Origin: a virus
Taxonomy: Duplodnaviria > Heunggongvirae > Uroviricota > Caudoviricetes
Strand: one strand, 5' to 3'
IMG/VR virus record: IMGVR_UViG_2850784384_000006
DNA length: 25,436 nt
The notes below the pieces were generated by a model that saw only the letters and a program-made list of their open reading frames with translations, was not told the DNA's origin and did no database searches. The position numbers and the translations under genes were made by a program. Shown one piece after another: positions 394 through 24,679 of this stretch (the first letter of the stretch is position 1; every line of letters begins with the position of its first letter).

Positions 394-1395
394 ATGCATA
401 AGAGCAACTGCTTTGATACGGCAAGGCTTGTGGCAGCTATGATGGTTCTAATCAGTCACCACTACGCGCTCTCTGGACAACTCGAGCCGTATATATTCGG
501 CTTTGAAAGTGCTGGCGGCATTGCTGTTATCATATTCTTTTCCATATCAGGATACCTGATTTCAAAATCAGCAATCAGAAGTGATTCCTTTATTGATTTC
601 ATGGCTAAAAGAGCAAGAAGAATATTCCCTGCTCTTGTCCCTTGCTCTGTACTGACGTATTTTTTATTTGGGTGGATGCTTAACAACTTCAGTACAGAAT
701 ATTTTAGTCATGACATTATCCGGAAGACCATAAGCTCTATTTTAATGAGTCAGGCTCCAGATGCCGACATTACATCACATTTAATTCATCCCGGTATTAA
801 CGGCAGCTTGTGGACACTACCACTGGAGTTTATGTGTTACATAATAACTGGAGTGGCTGTTGCTCTACTAAAGAGCGGAAAAACGTTCATAGTTATACTA
901 TTGATTTTTGTTTCACTTTCATTAGTTGAAAGTGTATCTGAGAACAAGGATGTAATATTCTCCATTCCAGTATGGCTGTATCCTTTGCGGGGGATGGCTT
1001 TCTTTTTTGGTGCCACTATGGCGATGTATGAGAAATCTTGGAATGTAAGTAATGTGAAAATTTCCGTGATTTCTTTGCTTGCTATGTACGCATACGCGAG
1101 CTATGGCAAAGGCATTGACTATACAATGGCTTGCTATATTCTGGTTTCTTTCTCAACAATAGCTATATGCACATCCTTTGGAGATCCACTGGTTAAGGGT
1201 AGGTTTGATTACTCTTATGGTGTATACATTTATGCATTCCCCGTTCAGCAGGTTATTATAAATACATTGCATATTGGCTTTTACCCTTCGATGTTGTTAA
1301 GTGCCATTGTCGTTCTTTTCTTGGCTCATCTTTCTTGGAATCTAATTGAAAAAAGATTCCTTACACGAAGCTCGCCAAAATTATCCCTGAATTGA
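394..1395 (+). CDS. oac: Acyltransferase family 3 integral membrane protein, O-antigen O-acetyltransferase-like (serotype-converting Oac type)
   Basis: 333-aa ORF, hydrophobic throughout (multi-TM); N-terminal R...HH motif (RLVAAMMVLISHH) and FFSISGYLIS segment typical of acyltransferase-3; length and N-terminus resemble phage Oac as I recall it. Markedly AT-rich versus flanking phage genes. Symbol is tentative. Confidence 0.7.
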   Translation: MHKSNCFDTARLVAAMMVLISHHYALSGQLEPYIFGFESAGGIAVIIFFSISGYLISKSAIRSDSFIDFMAKRARRIFPALVPCSVLTYFLFGWMLNNFSTEYFSHDIIRKTISSILMSQAPDADITSHLIHPGINGSLWTLPLEFMCYIITGVAVALLKSGKTFIVILLIFVSLSLVESVSENKDVIFSIPVWLYPLRGMAFFFGATMAMYEKSWNVSNVKISVISLLAMYAYASYGKGIDYTMACYILVSFSTIAICTSFGDPLVKGRFDYSYGVYIYAFPVQQVIINTLHIGFYPSMLLSAIVVLFLAHLSWNLIEKRFLTRSSPKLSLN

Positions 1396-2901: not shown

Positions 2902-3563
2902 GCTCCAACATCGAACCCGCCGATGTATTCGTTATCCATATCAAACCCAAAGAATTTAGAGCCCTCGGATGGTGCTTCTACCGAAGGCGTTTCAACATCA
3001 CCGGCCCATACGCCAGCTGCTTTAACGGTGAGATAGCCCTGTTTGATAGCGGCAATCAGTTCAAGAGACACATCAGAAATATCAGTCTCGGGGAATACCC
3101 AAACCGATATCGTCATGTCCTGGTTGTCGACAATTTGCATCCTCAGGCCTGAGCCTTCAGTCGCAGCGTCAAGGATGGGAGGCAGAGAGTCGTTCCGACC
3201 GTCCCAGTTGTTGATAGCGATTTTCGCTTTCAGAATGATGCGGTACGTCTCATCGCTTAGCGTCGTATAGCCAGAATCAGGATCATATGGCCCTTTCCAG
3301 ATGCCCTGGTCATACCCAAGCCCGTCAGTGTCCCAGCTGAAATAAACTCCGCTAATTGGCTGGCTGACTATGCGACTGCGTCCGATCCACAGACCGAGGA
3401 TGTCGAGCTGTACACCGACAGCAGTATCAATATCGAAGGCTGTTATAAGCCCTGACATAGTGCTGGACACATCAATCAGCGGGCGGGTGCTCAGATCTAT
3501 ATGGTCAAAAAAGAGTGGCTTGGTAGCGTGGTAGTTAGTGATCAGTTCGGTGTATTTGCTCAT
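2883..3563 (-). CDS. Baseplate/tail fibre-associated protein (DUF2612-like)
   Basis: 226-aa ORF immediately downstream of the baseplate J-like gene (ATGA-type overlap at 3560..3563); resemblance and position typical of DUF2612 proteins. Confidence 0.55.
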   Translation of the reverse strand: MSKYTELITNYHATKPLFFDHIDLSTRPLIDVSSTMSGLITAFDIDTAVGVQLDILGLWIGRSRIVSQPISGVYFSWDTDGLGYDQGIWKGPYDPDSGYTTLSDETYRIILKAKIAINNWDGRNDSLPPILDAATEGSGLRMQIVDNQDMTISVWVFPETDISDVSLELIAAIKQGYLTVKAAGVWAGDVETPSVEAPSEGSKFFGFDMDNEYIGGFDVGAWGTIL

Positions 3564-4759
3564 GAGGTCACCGTGATACTGATATTCGCGGTGCTACAGG
3601 ACGCAGAAGCATCATAGGCAATATCAATGTTTGATGCCGATACGCTGCCAGACGACTTACCGATCAGCAGGTCGGTAATATCGTAATAGCGGGCATTCCC
3701 GCCGCTCACAACGCCGAGGTTTGCCGGGGAATAAATACGGCTCAGCAGAACGTCGTCGCCAATTGTTAGGCCATTTATATAATCGGCAACAGCCTGTTTA
3801 ATCTGCTCGCCGATTTGAGAGGTATAGCCGGTAAAAACTTTCAGGGTAATGGCTACGAAAATTGGCACATCGGTAGAGCGCGAAAAACTGATGACGTGTG
3901 GATTACCGTAAGTATCCGGCACCGTGACAGAAGTTTTACCGTAAGTTGCGGTTCCCTGCCCTTTACTCCCCCGGATTGTTTGGGCTATCTCGGTAACATC
4001 CCCTCCATCGACGATGGCGGAAATAGAGTGTGGCGGCAGCCCGTTGCTGTCGGTTGCCCCAGTGTCGTTCTCATATAGTTTGTGACGTGTCACGCCAGCA
4101 ACATTAGCGATAGCACCGTCGACACCTTCAAACGGTGTGATCGATGGTAGCGCGACGCTTTGCCCCTGCCGAATGCGCAGCTCTGCGTCGGTTTCGGCTG
4201 GTGAACCGACAGTAGCCGCAACTGGATTGGTTACCGACACCCAACCTCGGGTCGGGGTGTTGATAGTGGTAATAGTCCCGGCCAGCGCCGCAACCGAACC
4301 GCTATTCGCACATGTGGCCGTCACCAGCACAGTACCATCAACGCCGATCGCTACACTTGCGGGAAAATTCCAGATAATGCCGTTTTTATCCCGTGCGGAG
4401 CCATTCGTGATAGTCGTGCCTGCCGTACCGGTTAACAGAAGGTCAGCAGTAGAGTTTGTCGCTACTTTTCGCGTGATCCCGTTAATTTTCACATTGCTGC
4501 TAAGCGCTGCGGCCTGCGCTGTCGTCGGTGAAAAAGAGTTGTAGATCCCGATAGCGGTGTTGTTAGCGTCATGCACGGCAAGAGCCACCAGCGCGACCAT
4601 CTGCCCGTCTTTGCTGTCTGGTTCGAGGTAGGCATCACTACCGTAAATCTGCCTGAAATAGCTGGTCAGTGTATCTAGGATTGTCTGGTAATCAGGCGCA
4701 CTAATCCCCTGGGCGGTTACCGTTGCCGATAGCCCCAGCGTGTCGAGGTTCAAAGCCAT
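3560..4759 (-). CDS. Baseplate J-like protein (Mu gp47 / P2 gpJ family)
   Basis: 399-aa ORF, Gly/Thr/Ala-rich, abutting the spike-like gene (stop 4760, start 4759); resemblance and synteny spike - J - DUF2612 - fibre. Confidence 0.7.
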   Translation of the reverse strand: MALNLDTLGLSATVTAQGISAPDYQTILDTLTSYFRQIYGSDAYLEPDSKDGQMVALVALAVHDANNTAIGIYNSFSPTTAQAAALSSNVKINGITRKVATNSTADLLLTGTAGTTITNGSARDKNGIIWNFPASVAIGVDGTVLVTATCANSGSVAALAGTITTINTPTRGWVSVTNPVAATVGSPAETDAELRIRQGQSVALPSITPFEGVDGAIANVAGVTRHKLYENDTGATDSNGLPPHSISAIVDGGDVTEIAQTIRGSKGQGTATYGKTSVTVPDTYGNPHVISFSRSTDVPIFVAITLKVFTGYTSQIGEQIKQAVADYINGLTIGDDVLLSRIYSPANLGVVSGGNARYYDITDLLIGKSSGSVSASNIDIAYDASASCSTANISITVTS

Positions 4760-5707
4760 TTATGCCTCGCTTGTTACAGTCGTCTGGCCGTAGATTGTGT
4801 CAATGGAGGAAGTGAAGGTGACGCGACGGCTGGTGCCGTCATAATTGGTATCGAAGGAAAGAATCGACAGAACGCCCGGTGTATCCTGTATGCGTTCGCG
4901 TATAGCCAGGATGTAGACATCTGATCGCTGCTTCCCAAGCACTGACTGAACATACGGCGTGCCTTCCGTCAGATCGAGAAACCACTGACCGCGCCACAGC
5001 TCGAAACGGGTTTTTACGGCCTGGGCGACACTGATACCAGAAGCTGTTACGTCATTCGTTACCATCACCGGCCCAAGCATCGTCGCAGTACCGCCGCTTT
5101 CGCCCATTCCCTGAGACAAGTTGCCATTAATCGTTACGTTGCCGTTCAGCGTGATAGTCGGGGATGTGATTGTCGTTCCACCTTCAGCCGTAGCTGTAAG
5201 CTGGCCCGGTGTTTTAATGGTGATGTTATGTCCTGCGGCGACTTCTACAAACGCCGCACCATCATCGGTTCGCAGCTGCGCGGCGCTGGTACTGATACCG
5301 CTGATTTTCCGTGCTTGCGACTGCGGGCCAACGATGGCGAACGCATCAGATAAGTCATGCTGGCGCGGGTCGACGGTCTCCTGAACGCCGCCGCTCTGCC
5401 ACCAAAAATCGATGCAACGGTCAGCAAAAATCAGGAGGCACTCGTCGCCTTCTTTTACCGGAAAGGTCAGCGTGCAACCGCCGCCGCGCGGGAAGATGAC
5501 CGGCACATCCACCAGCGGTTTTAATTCGGTGGATCCATCGCCAACAATACCGCGTAGCGCCACCTCTACTGTGCAGGTAACAGTCTCAGGATCGAACGAC
5601 TGAATGATGCCGGGCATCGCTACGCGCATCTGGGTAGACACCGAATCGGCAATGGCCTGCGCGGTCTGCTGCTCACCGCCGATCTGTGATTGAGTTGGAA
5701 TTGGCAT
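4760..5707 (-). CDS. Baseplate central spike-like protein (phage Gp138 N-terminal domain type)
   Basis: 315-aa ORF; N-terminal region ...MPGIIQSFDPETVTCTVEVALRG...PLVDVPVIFPRGGG... resembles the Gp138_N OB-fold; Gly/Thr-rich repeats in the middle suggest beta-helix. RBS GGGGG 4 nt before ATG. Confidence 0.6.
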   Translation of the reverse strand: MPIPTQSQIGGEQQTAQAIADSVSTQMRVAMPGIIQSFDPETVTCTVEVALRGIVGDGSTELKPLVDVPVIFPRGGGCTLTFPVKEGDECLLIFADRCIDFWWQSGGVQETVDPRQHDLSDAFAIVGPQSQARKISGISTSAAQLRTDDGAAFVEVAAGHNITIKTPGQLTATAEGGTTITSPTITLNGNVTINGNLSQGMGESGGTATMLGPVMVTNDVTASGISVAQAVKTRFELWRGQWFLDLTEGTPYVQSVLGKQRSDVYILAIRERIQDTPGVLSILSFDTNYDGTSRRVTFTSSIDTIYGQTTVTSEA

Positions 5708-5718
5708 AAAACCCCCAT

Positions 5719-5740
5719 AAAAAAACCAGCCGAAGCTGGT
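5719..5740 (-). terminator. Rho-independent terminator on minus strand, immediately upstream of the spike gene RBS
   Basis: Minus-strand RNA reads ACCAGC-UUCG-GCUGGU followed by seven U (plus-strand A-run 5719..5725); 6-bp stem, tetraloop. Confidence 0.6.
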
Positions 5741-5929
5741 TTGGTATCAATTATCTCTTAGTAACTAAGCTACATCAGTGTGAAGTAAGGCTTTTCCGCT
5801 GCAATGGCACACATTCACAAGGTGTATTAGGATATGTTTGCAACAAGTAAGCATTGAAAATCAATTTCAGCCATGAAGCCGCCATAGAGTGGACCTGCAC
5901 CATCGCATTATTGACTACAGGAGTAACAA

Positions 5930-6220
5930 ATGGGATTTAGATTTCGTAAAAGAATCCGGATTGCGCCCGGACTCGCGATCAACATTAGTAAAAGCGGAGT
6001 AAGCACTTCAATTGGTGGTAAAGGTTCCACCATTAACATCGGGAAAAAAGGCGTAAAGATGACAAATGGCCTTCCCGGCACGGGGCTGTCGCATACCACT
6101 AACCTTTACTCTCCCGGGAAATCGACAGAAAAAAAACAACTTACTCATAAGCAAAAAATAATTAGAAACATCCTGTTCGTAATTATTGTGTTTATAATAA
6201 TTAAAGCTCAATATTTTTGA
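5930..6220 (+). CDS. Small DUF4236-like protein with C-terminal hydrophobic anchor (moron gene)
   Basis: 96-aa ORF MGFRFRKRIRIAPGLAINISKSGVSTSIGGKGSTINIGKKGVKMTNGLPGTGLS... is the characteristic DUF4236 repeat pattern as I recall it; C-terminal IIRNILFVIIVFIIIKAQYF is TM-like. RBS AGGAG at 5918..5922; opposite strand to all flanking phage genes; AT-rich; followed by a terminator. Confidence 0.7.
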   Translation: MGFRFRKRIRIAPGLAINISKSGVSTSIGGKGSTINIGKKGVKMTNGLPGTGLSHTTNLYSPGKSTEKKQLTHKQKIIRNILFVIIVFIIIKAQYF

Positions 6221-6225
6221 CGCAT

Positions 6226-6250
6226 GCCCGCCTATCTGGCGGGCTATTTT
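6226..6250 (+). terminator. Rho-independent terminator for the DUF4236-like gene
   Basis: GCCCGCC-TATCT-GGCGGGC (perfect 7-bp GC stem, 6226..6244) followed by TATTTT, 6 nt after the TGA stop at 6218..6220. Overlaps the stop codon of the convergent minus-strand gene. Confidence 0.65.
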
Positions 6251-6588
6251 ACTTTTCGGCAGTCGTATGTTGCATACTGACGCGGCGAATCCATGCTGGC
6301 TTGCAGCCACTGTGCGTTGAGAATGGCTTTGCCGTTTCGATTGATGTACTCAAGACCAACCCATCTTCCAGGCTGATCGGTAGCCATACGCCAATCCATC
6401 TTGATATTGTTATAATCGCCTTTGTTTTTCAGGAAGGTGATTTTTTGCATTTCTGGCTTTGCGCCATTGATTCTGGCTAAGCCATCATCTGCCCAATGGA
6501 TTTTAAAATCACCACATTGCTGATCCGCAAAAGCGGGTGCTGATATAAGCACCGCGAACACGGTAACAGTGCAAAGTAAATGTCTCAC
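6244..6588 (-). CDS. Small secreted (periplasmic) protein with cleavable signal peptide, function unknown (moron gene)
   Basis: 114-aa ORF with GTG start and SD GAGGTG 6 nt upstream; N-terminus MRHLLCTVTVFAVLISAPAFA/DQQ fits an SPase I signal with AxA site; two Cys in the mature part (possible disulfide). SD overlaps the stop of the upstream hub-like gene, suggesting translational coupling. Confidence 0.6.
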   Translation of the reverse strand: MRHLLCTVTVFAVLISAPAFADQQCGDFKIHWADDGLARINGAKPEMQKITFLKNKGDYNNIKMDWRMATDQPGRWVGLEYINRNGKAILNAQWLQASMDSPRQYATYDCRKVK

Positions 6589-6600
6589 GGCCCCACCTCA

Positions 6601-7665
6601 CTAATTCGTCGTCCCTTGCATTGCTTTCGGGCTATAAAGATCACGAGCGCCACGCGCAAAACACATCAAATCCATGTACCACGCCTGACCTCTGGTGTCG
6701 CCAGTATAGTCGATAGCTTTGACGATATAAACGCCATCCGTCGCAATGCTGGCAGCCTGTGACGTCGTGCCGGTCAGCACACGGTTGCCGTTCTCTTCTG
6801 TTTCGGTGATACGCCCGGGCGACTGTGCTATTTCGCTATTGCCGAGCGTGGCGCGGTACACCGAAGCCTGATCGAGCTGGATAAGACCATTAATACGGAT
6901 GTTTGGGTTTATCAGGCATCGCACGTTTACTCCGCCACCCATCGTTTGTTGCGGCATACCGATCAGGCCAGTATTGGCATTCAACACAATGGCTTCGTGA
7001 ATATATTTATCCTCCGGCACCATCTGGACCTGACCATCCACCAGTTGCCATGTCGCTTTGCACTGCGCAGCAATATTATCCATCACGTTGCGGCTGGATG
7101 AGTAAATCGCGCGGCCACGAGGAAACACGGTATCAGGAAAATCGCCGGTAATGCCCTGTGTCACGCCGAACGCGTTGAAATCCTGCATCGTCGCCCGGTG
7201 CAGATCCGCAACGGTATATCCAGCGGCAAGCGTGGTGATGGTGGTCGCATAGAGGAACGCTTCGTGATCACCAATGGCCTGAATCAACACCCAGGAATCC
7301 GTAATGTTGTCCTTCCCGGTGACGGTGAAGCGAATATCACCGTCAAAAATCAGGCCGTAGTTCTGACCGTTCACCTGCCCTATCTGGTCTGGTGAAATCT
7401 CCCGGGACACACCAACCTGGCTCGCATCAACATCCGGCGCTATACCGTCATACCCGGCAATGATGCGAATTTTGGCAAACTCCTGCCCAAGTATCTTGTT
7501 CGTGGTATCGGTCGAAAGGTTGTAAATTTTCACGTTCGCCACGCGCGGCCAGCGTGTGTCTGCCCACTCGATCTGGAACGTGACCTTAAAGTCAGACAGG
7601 GAAACGCCCTGCCCGTTCTGGTCCAACAGTTGCAGCTCAAAATGGCGCATCCAGTTAAGAGACAT
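6601..7665 (-). CDS. Baseplate hub-like tail protein (late control gene D / Mu gp44-like)
   Basis: 354-aa ORF between the TMP-proximal small tail genes and the spike/J module; assignment by position and general resemblance only. Confidence 0.45.
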   Translation of the reverse strand: MSLNWMRHFELQLLDQNGQGVSLSDFKVTFQIEWADTRWPRVANVKIYNLSTDTTNKILGQEFAKIRIIAGYDGIAPDVDASQVGVSREISPDQIGQVNGQNYGLIFDGDIRFTVTGKDNITDSWVLIQAIGDHEAFLYATTITTLAAGYTVADLHRATMQDFNAFGVTQGITGDFPDTVFPRGRAIYSSSRNVMDNIAAQCKATWQLVDGQVQMVPEDKYIHEAIVLNANTGLIGMPQQTMGGGVNVRCLINPNIRINGLIQLDQASVYRATLGNSEIAQSPGRITETEENGNRVLTGTTSQAASIATDGVYIVKAIDYTGDTRGQAWYMDLMCFARGARDLYSPKAMQGTTN

Positions 7666-23430: not shown

Positions 23431-23502
23431 TGAAGTGGCACACTGAATTTGGCCACCTGAACAGAGGTGATATGCTCACCTCAGAACAACACAGGTGCTC
23501 CA

Positions 23503-24671
<1,169 letters not shown>

Positions 24672-24679
24672 CCACTTCA

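What the first reader, a model, noticed from the sequence alone, without database searches (positions are those of the whole stretch)
5930..6220. DUF4236-like small protein with C-terminal transmembrane anchor on the opposite strand to the tail operon
The Gly/Lys-rich N-terminal repeat pattern (FRFRKRIRIAPG...SKSGVSTSIGGKGSTINIGKKG) followed by a single hydrophobic helix at the extreme C-terminus suggests a tail-anchored membrane protein. Strong RBS and an intrinsic terminator indicate an autonomous transcription unit. Such small membrane proteins in prophages are often exclusion or abortive-infection factors, or toxin-like.
Basis: partly seen in the sequence, partly recalled or inferred. Interest (0 to 1): 0.5.

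Follow-up and report, generated by a model that had tools for sequence, protein, structure and literature searches.

The report
Prophage moron encoding membrane-anchored DUF4236 protein
A small, horizontally mobile gene wedged backwards into the tail genes of a decayed prophage encodes a membrane-anchored protein of an uncharacterised but very widespread family, and its recurring positions in phages suggest, without proving, that it blocks incoming phage DNA.

Summary
Window 5930-6220 (+) is a real 96-aa gene with a full-length Pfam DUF4236 match (E 1.8e-20), an AGGAG ribosome-binding site and a strong intrinsic terminator. It is under strong purifying selection (pN/pS about 0.06).

It has a C-terminal hydrophobic helix. 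Among 257 homologues, 68% are tail-anchored and over 90% are membrane-anchored. No convincing promoter was found, and the hydrophobic core is short (11 uncharged residues; family median 18).

The gene is a low-GC (39% versus 53-56%) cargo cassette in a variable slot between the tail spike and baseplate hub genes. Sister E. coli prophages carry Phd/Doc or unrelated small genes there.

Diverged homologues sit in the same slot in Hafnia, Klebsiella and Serratia. Others lie next to tape-measure or tail-tip genes in unrelated siphovirus prophages (the HK97 gp15 moron position), or between repressor and integrase in Firmicutes phages (the position I recall as the classical exclusion-gene slot).

Best reading, at confidence about 0.4: a prophage-expressed, N-in tail-anchored inner-membrane protein acting in superinfection exclusion or defence at DNA entry. 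Function is inferred from context only; the fold is a generic beta-meander and no literature exists.

Overall this is an ordinary kind of element, with modest novelty as a candidate new exclusion family.

The parts
5930..6220 (+). DUF4236 gene, 96 aa plus stop codon. Identical to copies in 11 IMG/VR viral contigs, and identical by translation to the RefSeq WP_000506880.1 genes of four E. coli strains.
   Evidence: ORF list. Pfam DUF4236 E 1.8e-20. pN/pS about 0.06 between allele groups. All homologues start MGFRF, which fixes the start codon. Identity to other copies.
5936..6094 (+). DUF4236 domain, residues 3-55. It is a highly basic (first 60 residues net +10) six-stranded amphipathic beta-meander with glycine turns, inferred to be cytoplasmic.
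   Evidence: Pfam stretch 3-55. AF2 strands at 6-12, 15-20, 23-30, 33-38, 41-48 and 53-60, mean pLDDT 83.8. Invariant P13, G14, N18, K21, G29, G32, P49, G50, G52. Charge.
6110..6145 (+). Polar, poorly conserved linker, residues 61-72. Three of the four amino-acid differences between the two E. coli allele groups fall at residues 67, 73 and 74, in or just after this linker (the fourth is G47S).
   Evidence: Block pLDDT 64. Variable in length and sequence in the alignment. Positions of substitutions.
6146..6214 (+). C-terminal helix, residues 73-95. The hydrophobic core IIRNILFVIIVFIII (residues 77-91, 6158-6202) is followed by only 5 residues, making it a tail anchor.
   Evidence: AF2 helix 73-95. 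Hydropathy. 175 of 257 homologues have one TM segment within 12 residues of the C-terminus. Short core caveat.
5919..5923 (+). Shine-Dalgarno AGGAG, 6 nt upstream of the ATG.
   Evidence: Read directly from the sequence. The motif TTGACTACAGGAG is conserved in the Klebsiella cassette.
6226..6254 (+). Intrinsic terminator of the DUF4236 gene, a GC hairpin plus T-tract. It abuts the stop codon of the convergent 114-aa gene.
   Evidence: Terminator scan. Fold -16.7 kcal/mol, z -4.0. Homologous cassettes in Hafnia and Klebsiella also end in a hairpin plus T-run.
5876..5929 (+). 5' leader/upstream block conserved with a Leclercia lambdoid-prophage cassette whose protein is only 59% identical. It travels with the gene; its role (promoter, operator or UTR) is unresolved.
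   Evidence: DNA alignment. No Rfam family reached its gathering score.
5838..5866 (+). Best sigma-70 promoter candidate, TTGCAA-17-TCAATT. It is weak and statistically indistinguishable from chance.
   Evidence: PWM scan score 6.9 against a median of 6.5 for random 222-nt windows. The consensus scan found none on the + strand.
5716..5742 (-). Minus-strand intrinsic terminator at the left edge of the cargo slot, immediately upstream of the spike gene's ribosome-binding site. The hairpin sequence differs between cargo types, but the T-run and the downstream RBS region are nearly identical across variants.
   Evidence: Terminator scan. Comparison of five cargo variants. Fold.
5723..6243 (.). The variable cargo slot (moron cassette) between the spike gene and the conserved 114-aa gene. 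In this region GC is 39% in the ORF and 41% in the upstream intergenic region, against 53-56% in the flanking tail genes.
   Evidence: Composition. Alternative cargos in sister prophages are a 181-aa, 128-aa or 53-aa hypothetical protein, or Phd/Doc.
6244..6588 (-). Convergent neighbour: a 114-aa protein with an N-terminal signal-peptide-like sequence (phrog_3443). A homologous gene of about 110-118 aa occupies this position in all cargo variants, so it is not part of the cassette.
4760..5707 (-). Left flank: gp138_N-type membrane-puncturing spike gene. In this window it is fused to the downstream sheath-initiator gene by a 139-bp deletion.
   Evidence: Pfam. BLAST against the intact TOK-001 prophage.
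6601..7665 (-). Right flank: baseplate hub gene (E217_GP41 / phrog_196).

Best explanation
The feature is a self-contained accessory gene cassette (a 'moron') carried in a variable slot of the tail operon of a now defective myovirus-type prophage.

Shown:
- It encodes a conserved, selected 96-aa protein with an N-terminal DUF4236 beta-meander domain, a polar linker and a hydrophobic helix at the extreme C-terminus.
- It has its own ribosome-binding site and terminator, and a foreign base composition.

Inferred:
- The protein is tail-anchored in the inner membrane, with the very basic DUF4236 domain in the cytoplasm (N-in) and only about 5 residues outside.
- The amphipathic sheet lies against the cytoplasmic face of the membrane and exposes its conserved Ser/Thr/Asn/Arg face.
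- The gene is transcribed from the repressed prophage, antisense to the late operon.

Most likely function, inferred from context only: a superinfection-exclusion or defence factor. It would interfere with the inner-membrane step of incoming DNA delivery (the channel formed by the tape-measure protein, spike or ejection proteins, or the DNA emerging from it). This would be analogous in role, but not homologous, to HK97 gp15, P22 SieA or T4 Imm.
For: 1. Real gene: Pfam E 1.8e-20 and pN/pS about 0.06.

2. Membrane anchoring is a family trait rather than chance. Of 257 homologues, 175 are tail-anchored, 42 have one TM segment plus a C-terminal domain and 21 have two or more TM segments. The TM sequences are not conserved, but their position is.

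3. N-in topology: the first 60 residues carry net charge +10, and the TM flanks carry +4 on the N side against +1 on the C side. The Vibrio and Photobacterium versions place an SH3b domain after the TM segment.

4. Moron features: GC 39% versus 53-56%, a terminator, and replacement in sister E. coli prophages by Phd/Doc or unrelated genes at exactly the same junctions.

5. Recurrent positions. The same slot and orientation occur in Hafnia, Klebsiella (including the cultured phage RCIP0034) and Serratia at 52-68% identity. Homologues lie between TAC and TMP in a metagenomic siphovirus, in Pantoea and in C. difficile phiCD38-2. That is the position of the HK97 gp15 exclusion moron (PMC3594210). 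Others lie between TMP and gpM in Leclercia and between gpK and gpI/J in P. syringae. In Roseburia and Faecalibacterium phages the gene lies between repressor and integrase.

6. Neighbours in 26 non-redundant viral loci are dominated by tail-tip and baseplate families. In 20 species genomes the neighbours include integrases, TMP/baseplate genes, N6 methylases and STAND NTPases.

7. The gene is retained intact in a prophage that has lost baseplate integrity and carries IS911 insertions.
Against: - There is no experimental or literature evidence for any DUF4236 function.
- No PADLOC or NCBIfam match was found.
- No promoter better than chance was found in this window, so expression in lysogens is unproven.
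- The hydrophobic core is unusually short, 11 uncharged residues.
- Some homologues lack a TM segment (phiCD38-2 gp15, Pmp2). Some lie on the same strand as the tail genes, or in strictly lytic jumbo phages. In the unbiased genome sample many neighbours are ordinary housekeeping genes.
- A cytoplasmic domain is not the obvious place from which to block entry.
Confidence: 0.4

Rival explanations
1. Abortive-infection effector or membrane toxin. The tail-anchored protein is kept inactive or at a low level in lysogens. On a trigger it oligomerises and depolarises or permeabilises the inner membrane, killing the cell. It may alternatively behave as a type-I-toxin-like addiction module.
Against: At 96 aa with a conserved 55-residue folded domain under strong purifying selection, it is unlike Hok, TisB or Ibs-type toxins. 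No partner antitoxin gene or sRNA was detected. Homologues fuse the domain to SH3b, TM2 or domains of up to roughly 500 residues. The gene persists as a single intact gene in decayed prophages. No PADLOC Abi model matches. The packing of the TM helix on the sheet is a common AlphaFold artefact.
Confidence: 0.2
2. A lysogenic-conversion factor unrelated to phage defence. As a membrane-anchored adaptor it would alter host envelope physiology, for example by binding anionic lipids, a host membrane complex or cell-wall machinery, and so benefit the lysogen under stress or in the host.
For: Moron architecture and retention in a defective prophage. The same prophage carries another conversion-type gene, an Acyl_transf_3 acyltransferase. 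The SH3b and TM2 fusions suggest envelope-directed roles. Many chromosomal homologues have housekeeping neighbours.
Against: This reading does not explain why close relatives repeatedly sit beside TMP, tip or spike genes, or in the repressor-integrase slot. No known domain points to a particular host pathway.
Confidence: 0.2
3. A phage-cycle function tied to the tail. This could be a membrane-associated assembly factor for the baseplate or tape-measure complex. It could also be a factor that protects progeny or the infected cell from the phage's own tails during lysis.
For: The gene is adjacent to TMP, hub or spike genes in at least eight different tail-module types. In some it lies on the same strand with no obvious terminator, as in phiCD38-2, P. 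syringae and Pasteurella Pmp2. Tail-tip and baseplate families dominate the neighbours in viral contigs.
Against: Near-identical E. coli prophages show presence/absence polymorphism, with other cargos in the slot. In the window family the gene is on the opposite strand, has its own terminator and has foreign GC. Homologues also occur in lysogeny modules, a Vibrio cassette array, a conjugative element and chromosomal islands.
Confidence: 0.1

Closest known systems
HK97 gp15 (YebO-like) superinfection-exclusion moron
   Same: Both are small prophage-encoded membrane proteins on a cassette inserted within the tail operon, with their own terminator (PMC3594210). [quoted passage not shown]
   Different: There is no sequence similarity: BLASTP finds nothing, gp15 hits Pfam YebO and the query hits only DUF4236. 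gp15 is 62 aa and lacks a folded basic N-terminal domain. The exclusion activity of gp15 has been shown experimentally, whereas none is shown here.
Other inner-membrane exclusion proteins: P22 SieA, T4 Imm, and the lactococcal Sie2009-type genes encoded between repressor and integrase
   Same: The proposed role is the same: prophage- or phage-encoded inner-membrane proteins that block DNA entry (PMC10883804, PMC11436027). DUF4236 genes sit between repressor and integrase in Roseburia phage Shimadzu and Faecalibacterium phage FP_Epona. From my own knowledge, this is the classical position of sie genes in Gram-positive temperate phages; this was not verified in a paper here.
   Different: These are different families with different topologies. 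Sequence relatedness to them was not tested directly, apart from the absence of any Pfam, NCBIfam or PADLOC hit other than DUF4236.
Pfam PF14020 (DUF4236) / PHROGs 18347, 27590, 17982 and others
   Same: The protein is a full-length, high-scoring member. RefSeq annotates the same gene as 'DUF4236 domain-containing protein'.
   Different: The family has no assigned function. This work adds three observations for the relatives sampled here (the closest few hundred): the domain is almost always at the extreme N-terminus, it is usually followed by a membrane anchor, and it rides on phage and mobile-element cargo positions.
SNIPE, a membrane-bound nuclease acting at the phage DNA injection site
   Same: It is a conceptual analogue: a constitutively membrane-localised defence protein that acts on phage genome injection and associates with tape-measure proteins (PMC13190303, abstract).
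   Different: SNIPE is a large nuclease. The DUF4236 protein has no catalytic domain, and no relationship between the two was detected.

Membership tests
Pfam DUF4236 (PF14020) | Score above the curated gathering threshold over the whole profile | tested here: met
   73.6 bits against a cutoff of 27; residues 3-55 cover profile positions 1-54 of 55; E 1.8e-20.
Tail-anchored membrane protein | A single hydrophobic helix at the extreme C-terminus with a very short segment after it | tested here: met
   Kyte-Doolittle 19-residue mean 2.05 at residues 77-95. AF2 helix at 73-95. Five residues follow the core. The core is short, 11 uncharged residues against a family median of 18.
Tail-anchored membrane protein | No N-terminal signal peptide, and the N-terminal domain is cytoplasmic | tested here: inconclusive
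   The N-terminus is a basic beta-strand, not a signal peptide. The first 60 residues carry net +10, which by the positive-inside rule favours N-in. The SH3b domain follows the TM segment in Vibrio homologues.
Tail-anchored membrane protein | Actual membrane integration | not testable with these tools
   This needs fractionation with carbonate extraction, or reporter fusions.
Phage moron (as described in PMC3594210, citing Juhala et al. 2000) | An extra gene inserted between genes that are adjacent in related phages | tested here: met
   The slot between the spike gene and the 114-aa gene holds different cargos in sister E. coli prophages, with near-identical conserved flanking sequence on both sides of the variable segment.
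Phage moron (as described in PMC3594210, citing Juhala et al. 2000) | Base composition different from the surrounding genes | tested here: met
   GC 39% against 53-56% in the flanking tail genes.
Phage moron (as described in PMC3594210, citing Juhala et al. 2000) | Own terminator | tested here: met
   Hairpin at 6226-6244 plus a T-tract, -16.7 kcal/mol, z -4.0.
Phage moron (as described in PMC3594210, citing Juhala et al. 2000) | Own promoter active in the repressed prophage | tested here: inconclusive
   The best candidate, TTGCAA-17-TCAATT, scores at the median of random windows, and the consensus scan found none. Homologous cassettes have better -10 elements 35-50 nt upstream of the ATG. 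Transcription was not measured.
HK97 gp15 / YebO exclusion family | Sequence homology to gp15/YebO (PF13974) | tested here: not met
   BLASTP finds no alignment. gp15 hits YebO, whereas the query hits only DUF4236.
Superinfection-exclusion protein (functional class) | Expression reduces infection by blocking adsorption or DNA entry | not testable with these tools
   There is contextual support only.
Known anti-phage defence systems (PADLOC-DB 2.0) | Match to a defence-protein model | tested here: not met
   No hit at E up to 1 for the query, and none for three homologues from other phages.
Type I toxin / small membrane toxin | Very short hydrophobic peptide (typically under 60 aa) with a cis- or trans-encoded antisense RNA | tested here: not met
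   The protein is 96 aa with a conserved 55-residue soluble domain. No Rfam sRNA reached its gathering score in 5500-6700. The only antisense transcript expected is the late-operon read-through.
Holin / lysis protein | Located in a lysis cassette next to an endolysin and expressed late | tested here: not met
   It lies between spike and hub genes on the opposite strand to the late operon. No endolysin gene was among the neighbours identified in 2.9-8 kb, and presence in this slot is variable.

The most novel reading that the evidence does not exclude
Membrane-anchored DUF4236 proteins would be a large, previously unrecognised family of exclusion factors. The family has about 12,900 clusters at 50% identity and is present in at least 515 species across many phyla and in at least 502 viral contigs. 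These factors would guard the cytoplasmic face of the inner membrane against incoming DNA from phages, and possibly from conjugative elements. The conserved polar face of the N-terminal beta-meander would be the recognition surface, and interchangeable membrane or periplasmic modules would provide localisation.
Probability: 0.3. Interest if true: 0.6.

Novelty: new member of a known kind. Interest (0 to 1): 0.4.

Why it matters
Small prophage-encoded membrane proteins are a poorly charted layer of phage resistance, and few families have been characterised (HK97 gp15, SieA, Imm, Sie2009, Cor, Llp). DUF4236 is abundant, spans many phyla and has essentially no literature.

The positional pattern found here turns an anonymous DUF into a cheaply testable hypothesis. 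The pattern comprises the spike-hub slot, the TAC-TMP slot, the TMP-gpM slot, the repressor-integrase slot, a Vibrio array of small same-strand cassettes, and islands flanked by integrases.

Cultured test systems are at hand: Klebsiella phages RCIP0034 and GZ7, C. difficile phiCD38-2, and E. coli lysogens.

If confirmed, it would add a widespread single-gene exclusion family. It would also help annotate thousands of prophage cargo genes. If refuted, this remains an ordinary hypothetical moron.

Tried and rejected
- **Defence and annotation libraries.** PADLOC and NCBIfam gave no hits.
- **Literature.** Only one incidental mention of DUF4236 was found. The 'PF14020' hits are Plasmodium gene identifiers. 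The phiCD38-2 and CDHS-1 transcriptome papers gave no information on the homologous gene.
- **Promoter.** Neither the consensus scan nor the PWM scan found anything above background in this window.
- **Structured RNA in the conserved leader.** Only sub-threshold Rfam hits were found, driven by the minus-strand terminator.
- **Antisense ORFs.** The 100-aa ORF at 6008-6310 and the 63-aa ORF at 5908-6099 were rejected as genes. The substitution pattern fits the + frame, and the + frame has thousands of homologues.
- **Invertible segment.** The chimeric database protein P0114 prompted this idea. No meaningful inverted repeats lie at the junctions, so it is probably an isolated rearrangement or assembly artefact.
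- **Essential tail component.** Rejected because of the presence/absence polymorphism.

Full report

Yes. It matches Pfam DUF4236 over essentially the whole profile: residues 3-55, 73.6 bits against a gathering score of 27, E 1.8e-20. It also matches nine PHROG families of unknown function, always through their N-termini.

AGGAG lies at 5919-5923, six bases before the ATG. A 7-GC-pair hairpin at 6226-6244 followed by TATTTTACTTTT is picked up by the terminator scan. It folds at -16.7 kcal/mol, z -4.0 against shuffles.

All surrounding structural genes are on the - strand. They are Baseplate_J (3560-4759), a gp138_N spike ORF (4760-5707), the E217_GP41/phrog_196 hub (6601-7665) and the Pam3_gp18 plug (7668-7973).

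The reading frame is under strong purifying selection. Two allele groups in E. coli prophages differ by 19-23 synonymous but only 4-5 non-synonymous substitutions, giving pS 0.24-0.35 and pN about 0.02. Every amino-acid change except G47S falls at residues 67, 73 or 74, in or just after the linker. The overlapping antisense ORFs are therefore not the gene.

**2. The protein**

AlphaFold2 with a 70-sequence alignment gives mean pLDDT 83.8. The model has six short beta-strands (6-12, 15-20, 23-30, 33-38, 41-48, 53-60) joined by glycine turns, a low-confidence linker (61-72) and a helix at 73-95. The 'Gly/Lys-rich repeat' is thus a beta-meander.

Reading the strands directly shows an alternation. 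One face is hydrophobic (F3, F5, I9, I11, L15, I17, I19, V24, I28, I35, I37, V42, M44, L48, L53, L59). The other face carries the arginines of strand 1 and the nearly invariant N18, S20, S25, S27, T45 and S54.

The first 60 residues have net charge +10; the family mean is +9.4.

The C-terminal segment IIRNILFVIIVFIII, followed by KAQYF, passes the classical Kyte-Doolittle criterion with a 19-residue mean of 2.05. However, its uncharged core is only 11 residues, at the short end of the family, whose median is 18.

The anchor is clearly a family trait. Among 257 homologues from two searches, 175 have one hydrophobic segment within 12 residues of the C-terminus. A further 42 have one segment followed by another domain, and 21 have two or more. 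Only 19 have none, and most of these are truncated or frameshifted. The hydrophobic sequences themselves are not conserved; only their position is.

The Vibrio and Photobacterium versions add an SH3b domain after the TM segment. From my own knowledge, SH3b domains are usually extracytoplasmic, often cell-wall-binding, modules. Together with the positive-inside rule, this argues for an N-in, C-out topology. That topology is an inference.

**3. The locus**

The ORF has 39% GC, against 53-56% in the spike and hub genes.

The window is a close relative of a prophage integrated next to tonB-yciI in E. coli TOK-001. The 1.1-kb query spanning the slot matched 42 of 5,426 complete E. coli genomes, and the slot between the spike gene and a conserved 114-aa signal-peptide gene is polymorphic. 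About 19 genomes carry the DUF4236 gene on the opposite strand. Others carry a 181-aa, 128-aa or 53-aa hypothetical protein, or a Phd/Doc toxin-antitoxin pair on the operon strand.

The left junction is precise. In the five variants compared, the cargo ends in its own minus-strand terminator hairpin, of which three different hairpin sequences were seen. This is followed by a near-identical T-run and RBS region of the spike gene.

The cassette here is therefore about 5723-6243. It comprises the minus-strand hairpin, a 180-nt upstream region, the gene and its + strand terminator.

The last ~55 nt before the ATG are more conserved with a Leclercia lambdoid-prophage cassette than the proteins are (59% identity). 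The gene therefore moves together with its 5' region.

I could not identify a convincing promoter. The consensus scan finds none on the + strand. The best PWM candidate, TTGCAA-17-TCAATT at 5838-5866, scores at the median of random windows. Homologous cassettes in P. syringae and Hafnia do have good -10 elements 35-40 nt upstream of the ATG. 'Autonomous transcription unit' is therefore supported for the ribosome-binding site and terminator only.

**4. Where relatives live**

The same slot and the same opposite orientation hold diverged homologues:
- Hafnia, 58% identity.
- Klebsiella, 52% identity.
- The cultured Klebsiella phage RCIP0034.
- Serratia, 68% identity.
- Several IMG/VR contigs, including 106-177-aa architectural variants.

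In unrelated tail modules the gene sits in these positions:
- Between gpK and gpI/J in a lambda-like prophage of P. syringae B728a.
- Between the tape-measure gene and gpM, on the opposite strand, in Leclercia.
- Between DUF6246, which sits where a tail assembly chaperone would, and the tape-measure gene, on the opposite strand, in Pantoea.
- Between the TAC-position gene gp14 and the tape-measure gene in C. difficile phiCD38-2, where gp15 is 213 aa and has no TM segment.
- After the hub in Pasteurella Pmp2.
- Upstream of a large, unannotated ORF that is probably the tape-measure gene in an Acinetobacter Vieuvirus.

The chaperone/tape-measure position is exactly where the founding moron, HK97 gene 15, lies. 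Its product is an inner-membrane superinfection-exclusion protein (PMC3594210).

In Roseburia phage Shimadzu and Faecalibacterium phage FP_Epona the DUF4236 gene lies between repressor and integrase on their strand. From my own knowledge, this is the classical place for sie genes in Gram-positive temperate phages.

Other contexts also occur:
- A Vibrio array of small same-strand cassettes, alongside DUF4238 and restriction-enzyme-like genes.
- A relaxase/ParAB element, next to RadC.
- The end of a prophage remnant.

Two aggregate measures were made. The Pfam families of 147 neighbours from 26 non-redundant viral loci are dominated by gp138_N, E217_GP41, Baseplate_J, TMP_3, Dit_like, gpM, gpL and gpK. 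In an unbiased sample of 20 species genomes with short tail-anchored homologues, the commonest neighbours are phage integrases (4). These are followed by tape-measure and baseplate families, N6 DNA methylases and STAND NTPases, mixed with housekeeping genes.

The family is large: 12,932 cluster representatives at 50% identity. It is present in at least 515 species of many phyla and in at least 502 viral contigs.

**5. Mechanism**

Shown: this is a selected, mobile cargo gene encoding a DUF4236 domain followed by a C-terminal hydrophobic helix.

Inferred: it is a tail-anchored inner-membrane protein, N-in. Its amphipathic sheet probably lies on the cytoplasmic membrane surface and presents its conserved polar face. 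It is probably expressed from the repressed prophage and silenced by convergent late transcription on induction.

Most likely role, at confidence about 0.4: exclusion or defence at the inner-membrane step of DNA delivery. This rests on three observations. The gene recurs in positions that other exclusion genes occupy. It is linked to the genes whose products cross the inner membrane (tape measure, spike, tip). It associates with mobile-element and island cargo.

The rivals are:
- An abortive-infection effector or membrane toxin (0.2).
- A non-defence lysogenic-conversion role in envelope physiology (0.2).
- A tail-related phage-cycle function (0.1). The presence/absence polymorphism argues against this one.

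**6. Comparison with known systems, and novelty**

The protein is a bona fide DUF4236 member and fits the definition of a moron, except that its promoter is unproven. It is not homologous to HK97 gp15/YebO and matches no PADLOC model.

No paper in the library characterises DUF4236.

The element is an ordinary kind of thing, a prophage moron encoding a small membrane protein. Its family has no assigned function. The positional pattern documented here makes a specific, testable prediction. I rate it a new member of a known kind, with interest 0.4.

**7. State of this particular prophage**

Relative to TOK-001, the window has a 139-bp deletion that fuses the spike and sheath-initiator genes into the 315-aa ORF at 4760-5707. 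It carries two 99.9%-identical IS911 copies that are 100% identical to Shigella flexneri copies. One interrupts the Dit-like gene. The other lies between the small terminase gene and the integrase gene.

The tail operon is therefore dead, while the DUF4236 cassette is intact. This is consistent with host-level usefulness but does not prove it.

Noticed in passing
window 5024-5031 (junction), ORF 4760-5707 (-): Relative to the intact E. coli TOK-001 prophage, a 139-bp deletion fuses the gp138_N spike gene to the downstream sheath-initiator (gp25-like) gene. This gives a 315-aa hybrid ORF, so the baseplate module is probably non-functional.
   Followed up: partly
window 8111-9359 and 23431-24679: Two 99.9%-identical copies of IS911 are present, 100% identical to copies on Shigella flexneri virulence plasmids. 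One interrupts the Dit-like baseplate gene. The other sits between the small terminase gene and the integrase gene, suggesting loss or rearrangement of the early region. The window is probably from Shigella flexneri.
   Followed up: partly
window 394-1395 (+): A 333-aa Acyl_transf_3 family acyltransferase lies beside the tail-fibre genes at the prophage end. It is 88.6% identical at the DNA level to E. coli prophage acyltransferase genes. It is a candidate O-antigen-modifying conversion gene and a second moron in the same element.
   Followed up: partly
window 5716-5742 (-); L002-L006 around 1609-1650: Every cargo variant of the spike-hub slot ends in a minus-strand intrinsic terminator just upstream of the spike gene. 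The hairpin sequence depends on the cargo, but the T-run and RBS region are nearly identical across variants. The late tail operon is thus interrupted by a terminator, which implies antiterminated late transcription. The hairpin may also mark the recombination junction for cargo exchange.
   Followed up: partly
window 6244-6588 (-): A 114-aa protein with a signal-peptide-like N-terminus (MRHLLCTVTVFAVLISAPAFA/DQQ) and 46% GC (phrog_3443, no Pfam hit) is conserved between hub and cargo slot in all prophage variants. An exported protein inside a tail operon is unusual, and it may itself be an accessory factor.
   Followed up: no
window 5876-5929; L022 6945-7000: The ~55 nt upstream of the DUF4236 start codon (GCCGCCATAGAGTGGACCTGCACCATCGCAT...) are better conserved between the E. 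coli myovirus-type cassette and a Leclercia lambdoid cassette than the encoded proteins are (59% identity). The block could be a regulatory site or leader; no Rfam family matched.
   Followed up: partly
protein P0114 (one 3.5-kb NCBI contig): A database protein fuses the first 39 residues of this DUF4236 protein to the last ~27 residues of the convergent 114-aa protein. This would require an inversion between the two genes. No supporting inverted repeats were found in the window, so it is probably a rare rearrangement or assembly artefact.
   Followed up: partly
L016 1-14504 (Vibrio diabolicus chromosome): The 167-aa DUF4236-TM-SH3b version sits in a long array of small same-strand genes separated by ~130-170-bp spacers. 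The array includes DUF4238, ankyrin, GNAT and an NgoFVII-like restriction enzyme. It looks like a chromosomal integron cassette array; attC sites were not checked.
   Followed up: no
L019 6288-7745 (metagenomic siphovirus, between TAC and TMP): Here the DUF4236 gene is part of a three-gene insert. A divergently transcribed 165-aa gene with weak HTH-like hits lies upstream. A 111-aa protein with a weak LptM-type lipoprotein signature lies downstream, making it another candidate envelope or exclusion factor.
   Followed up: no
phage records H63-H78 and H102-H103: DUF4236 domains also occur in strictly lytic large phages: the 310-360-kb Brevundimonas jumbo phages, and the 137-150-kb Klebsiella phages, where in some records the match overlaps or abuts an NrdA-like gene. 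The family is therefore not restricted to lysogenic-conversion cargo.
   Followed up: no
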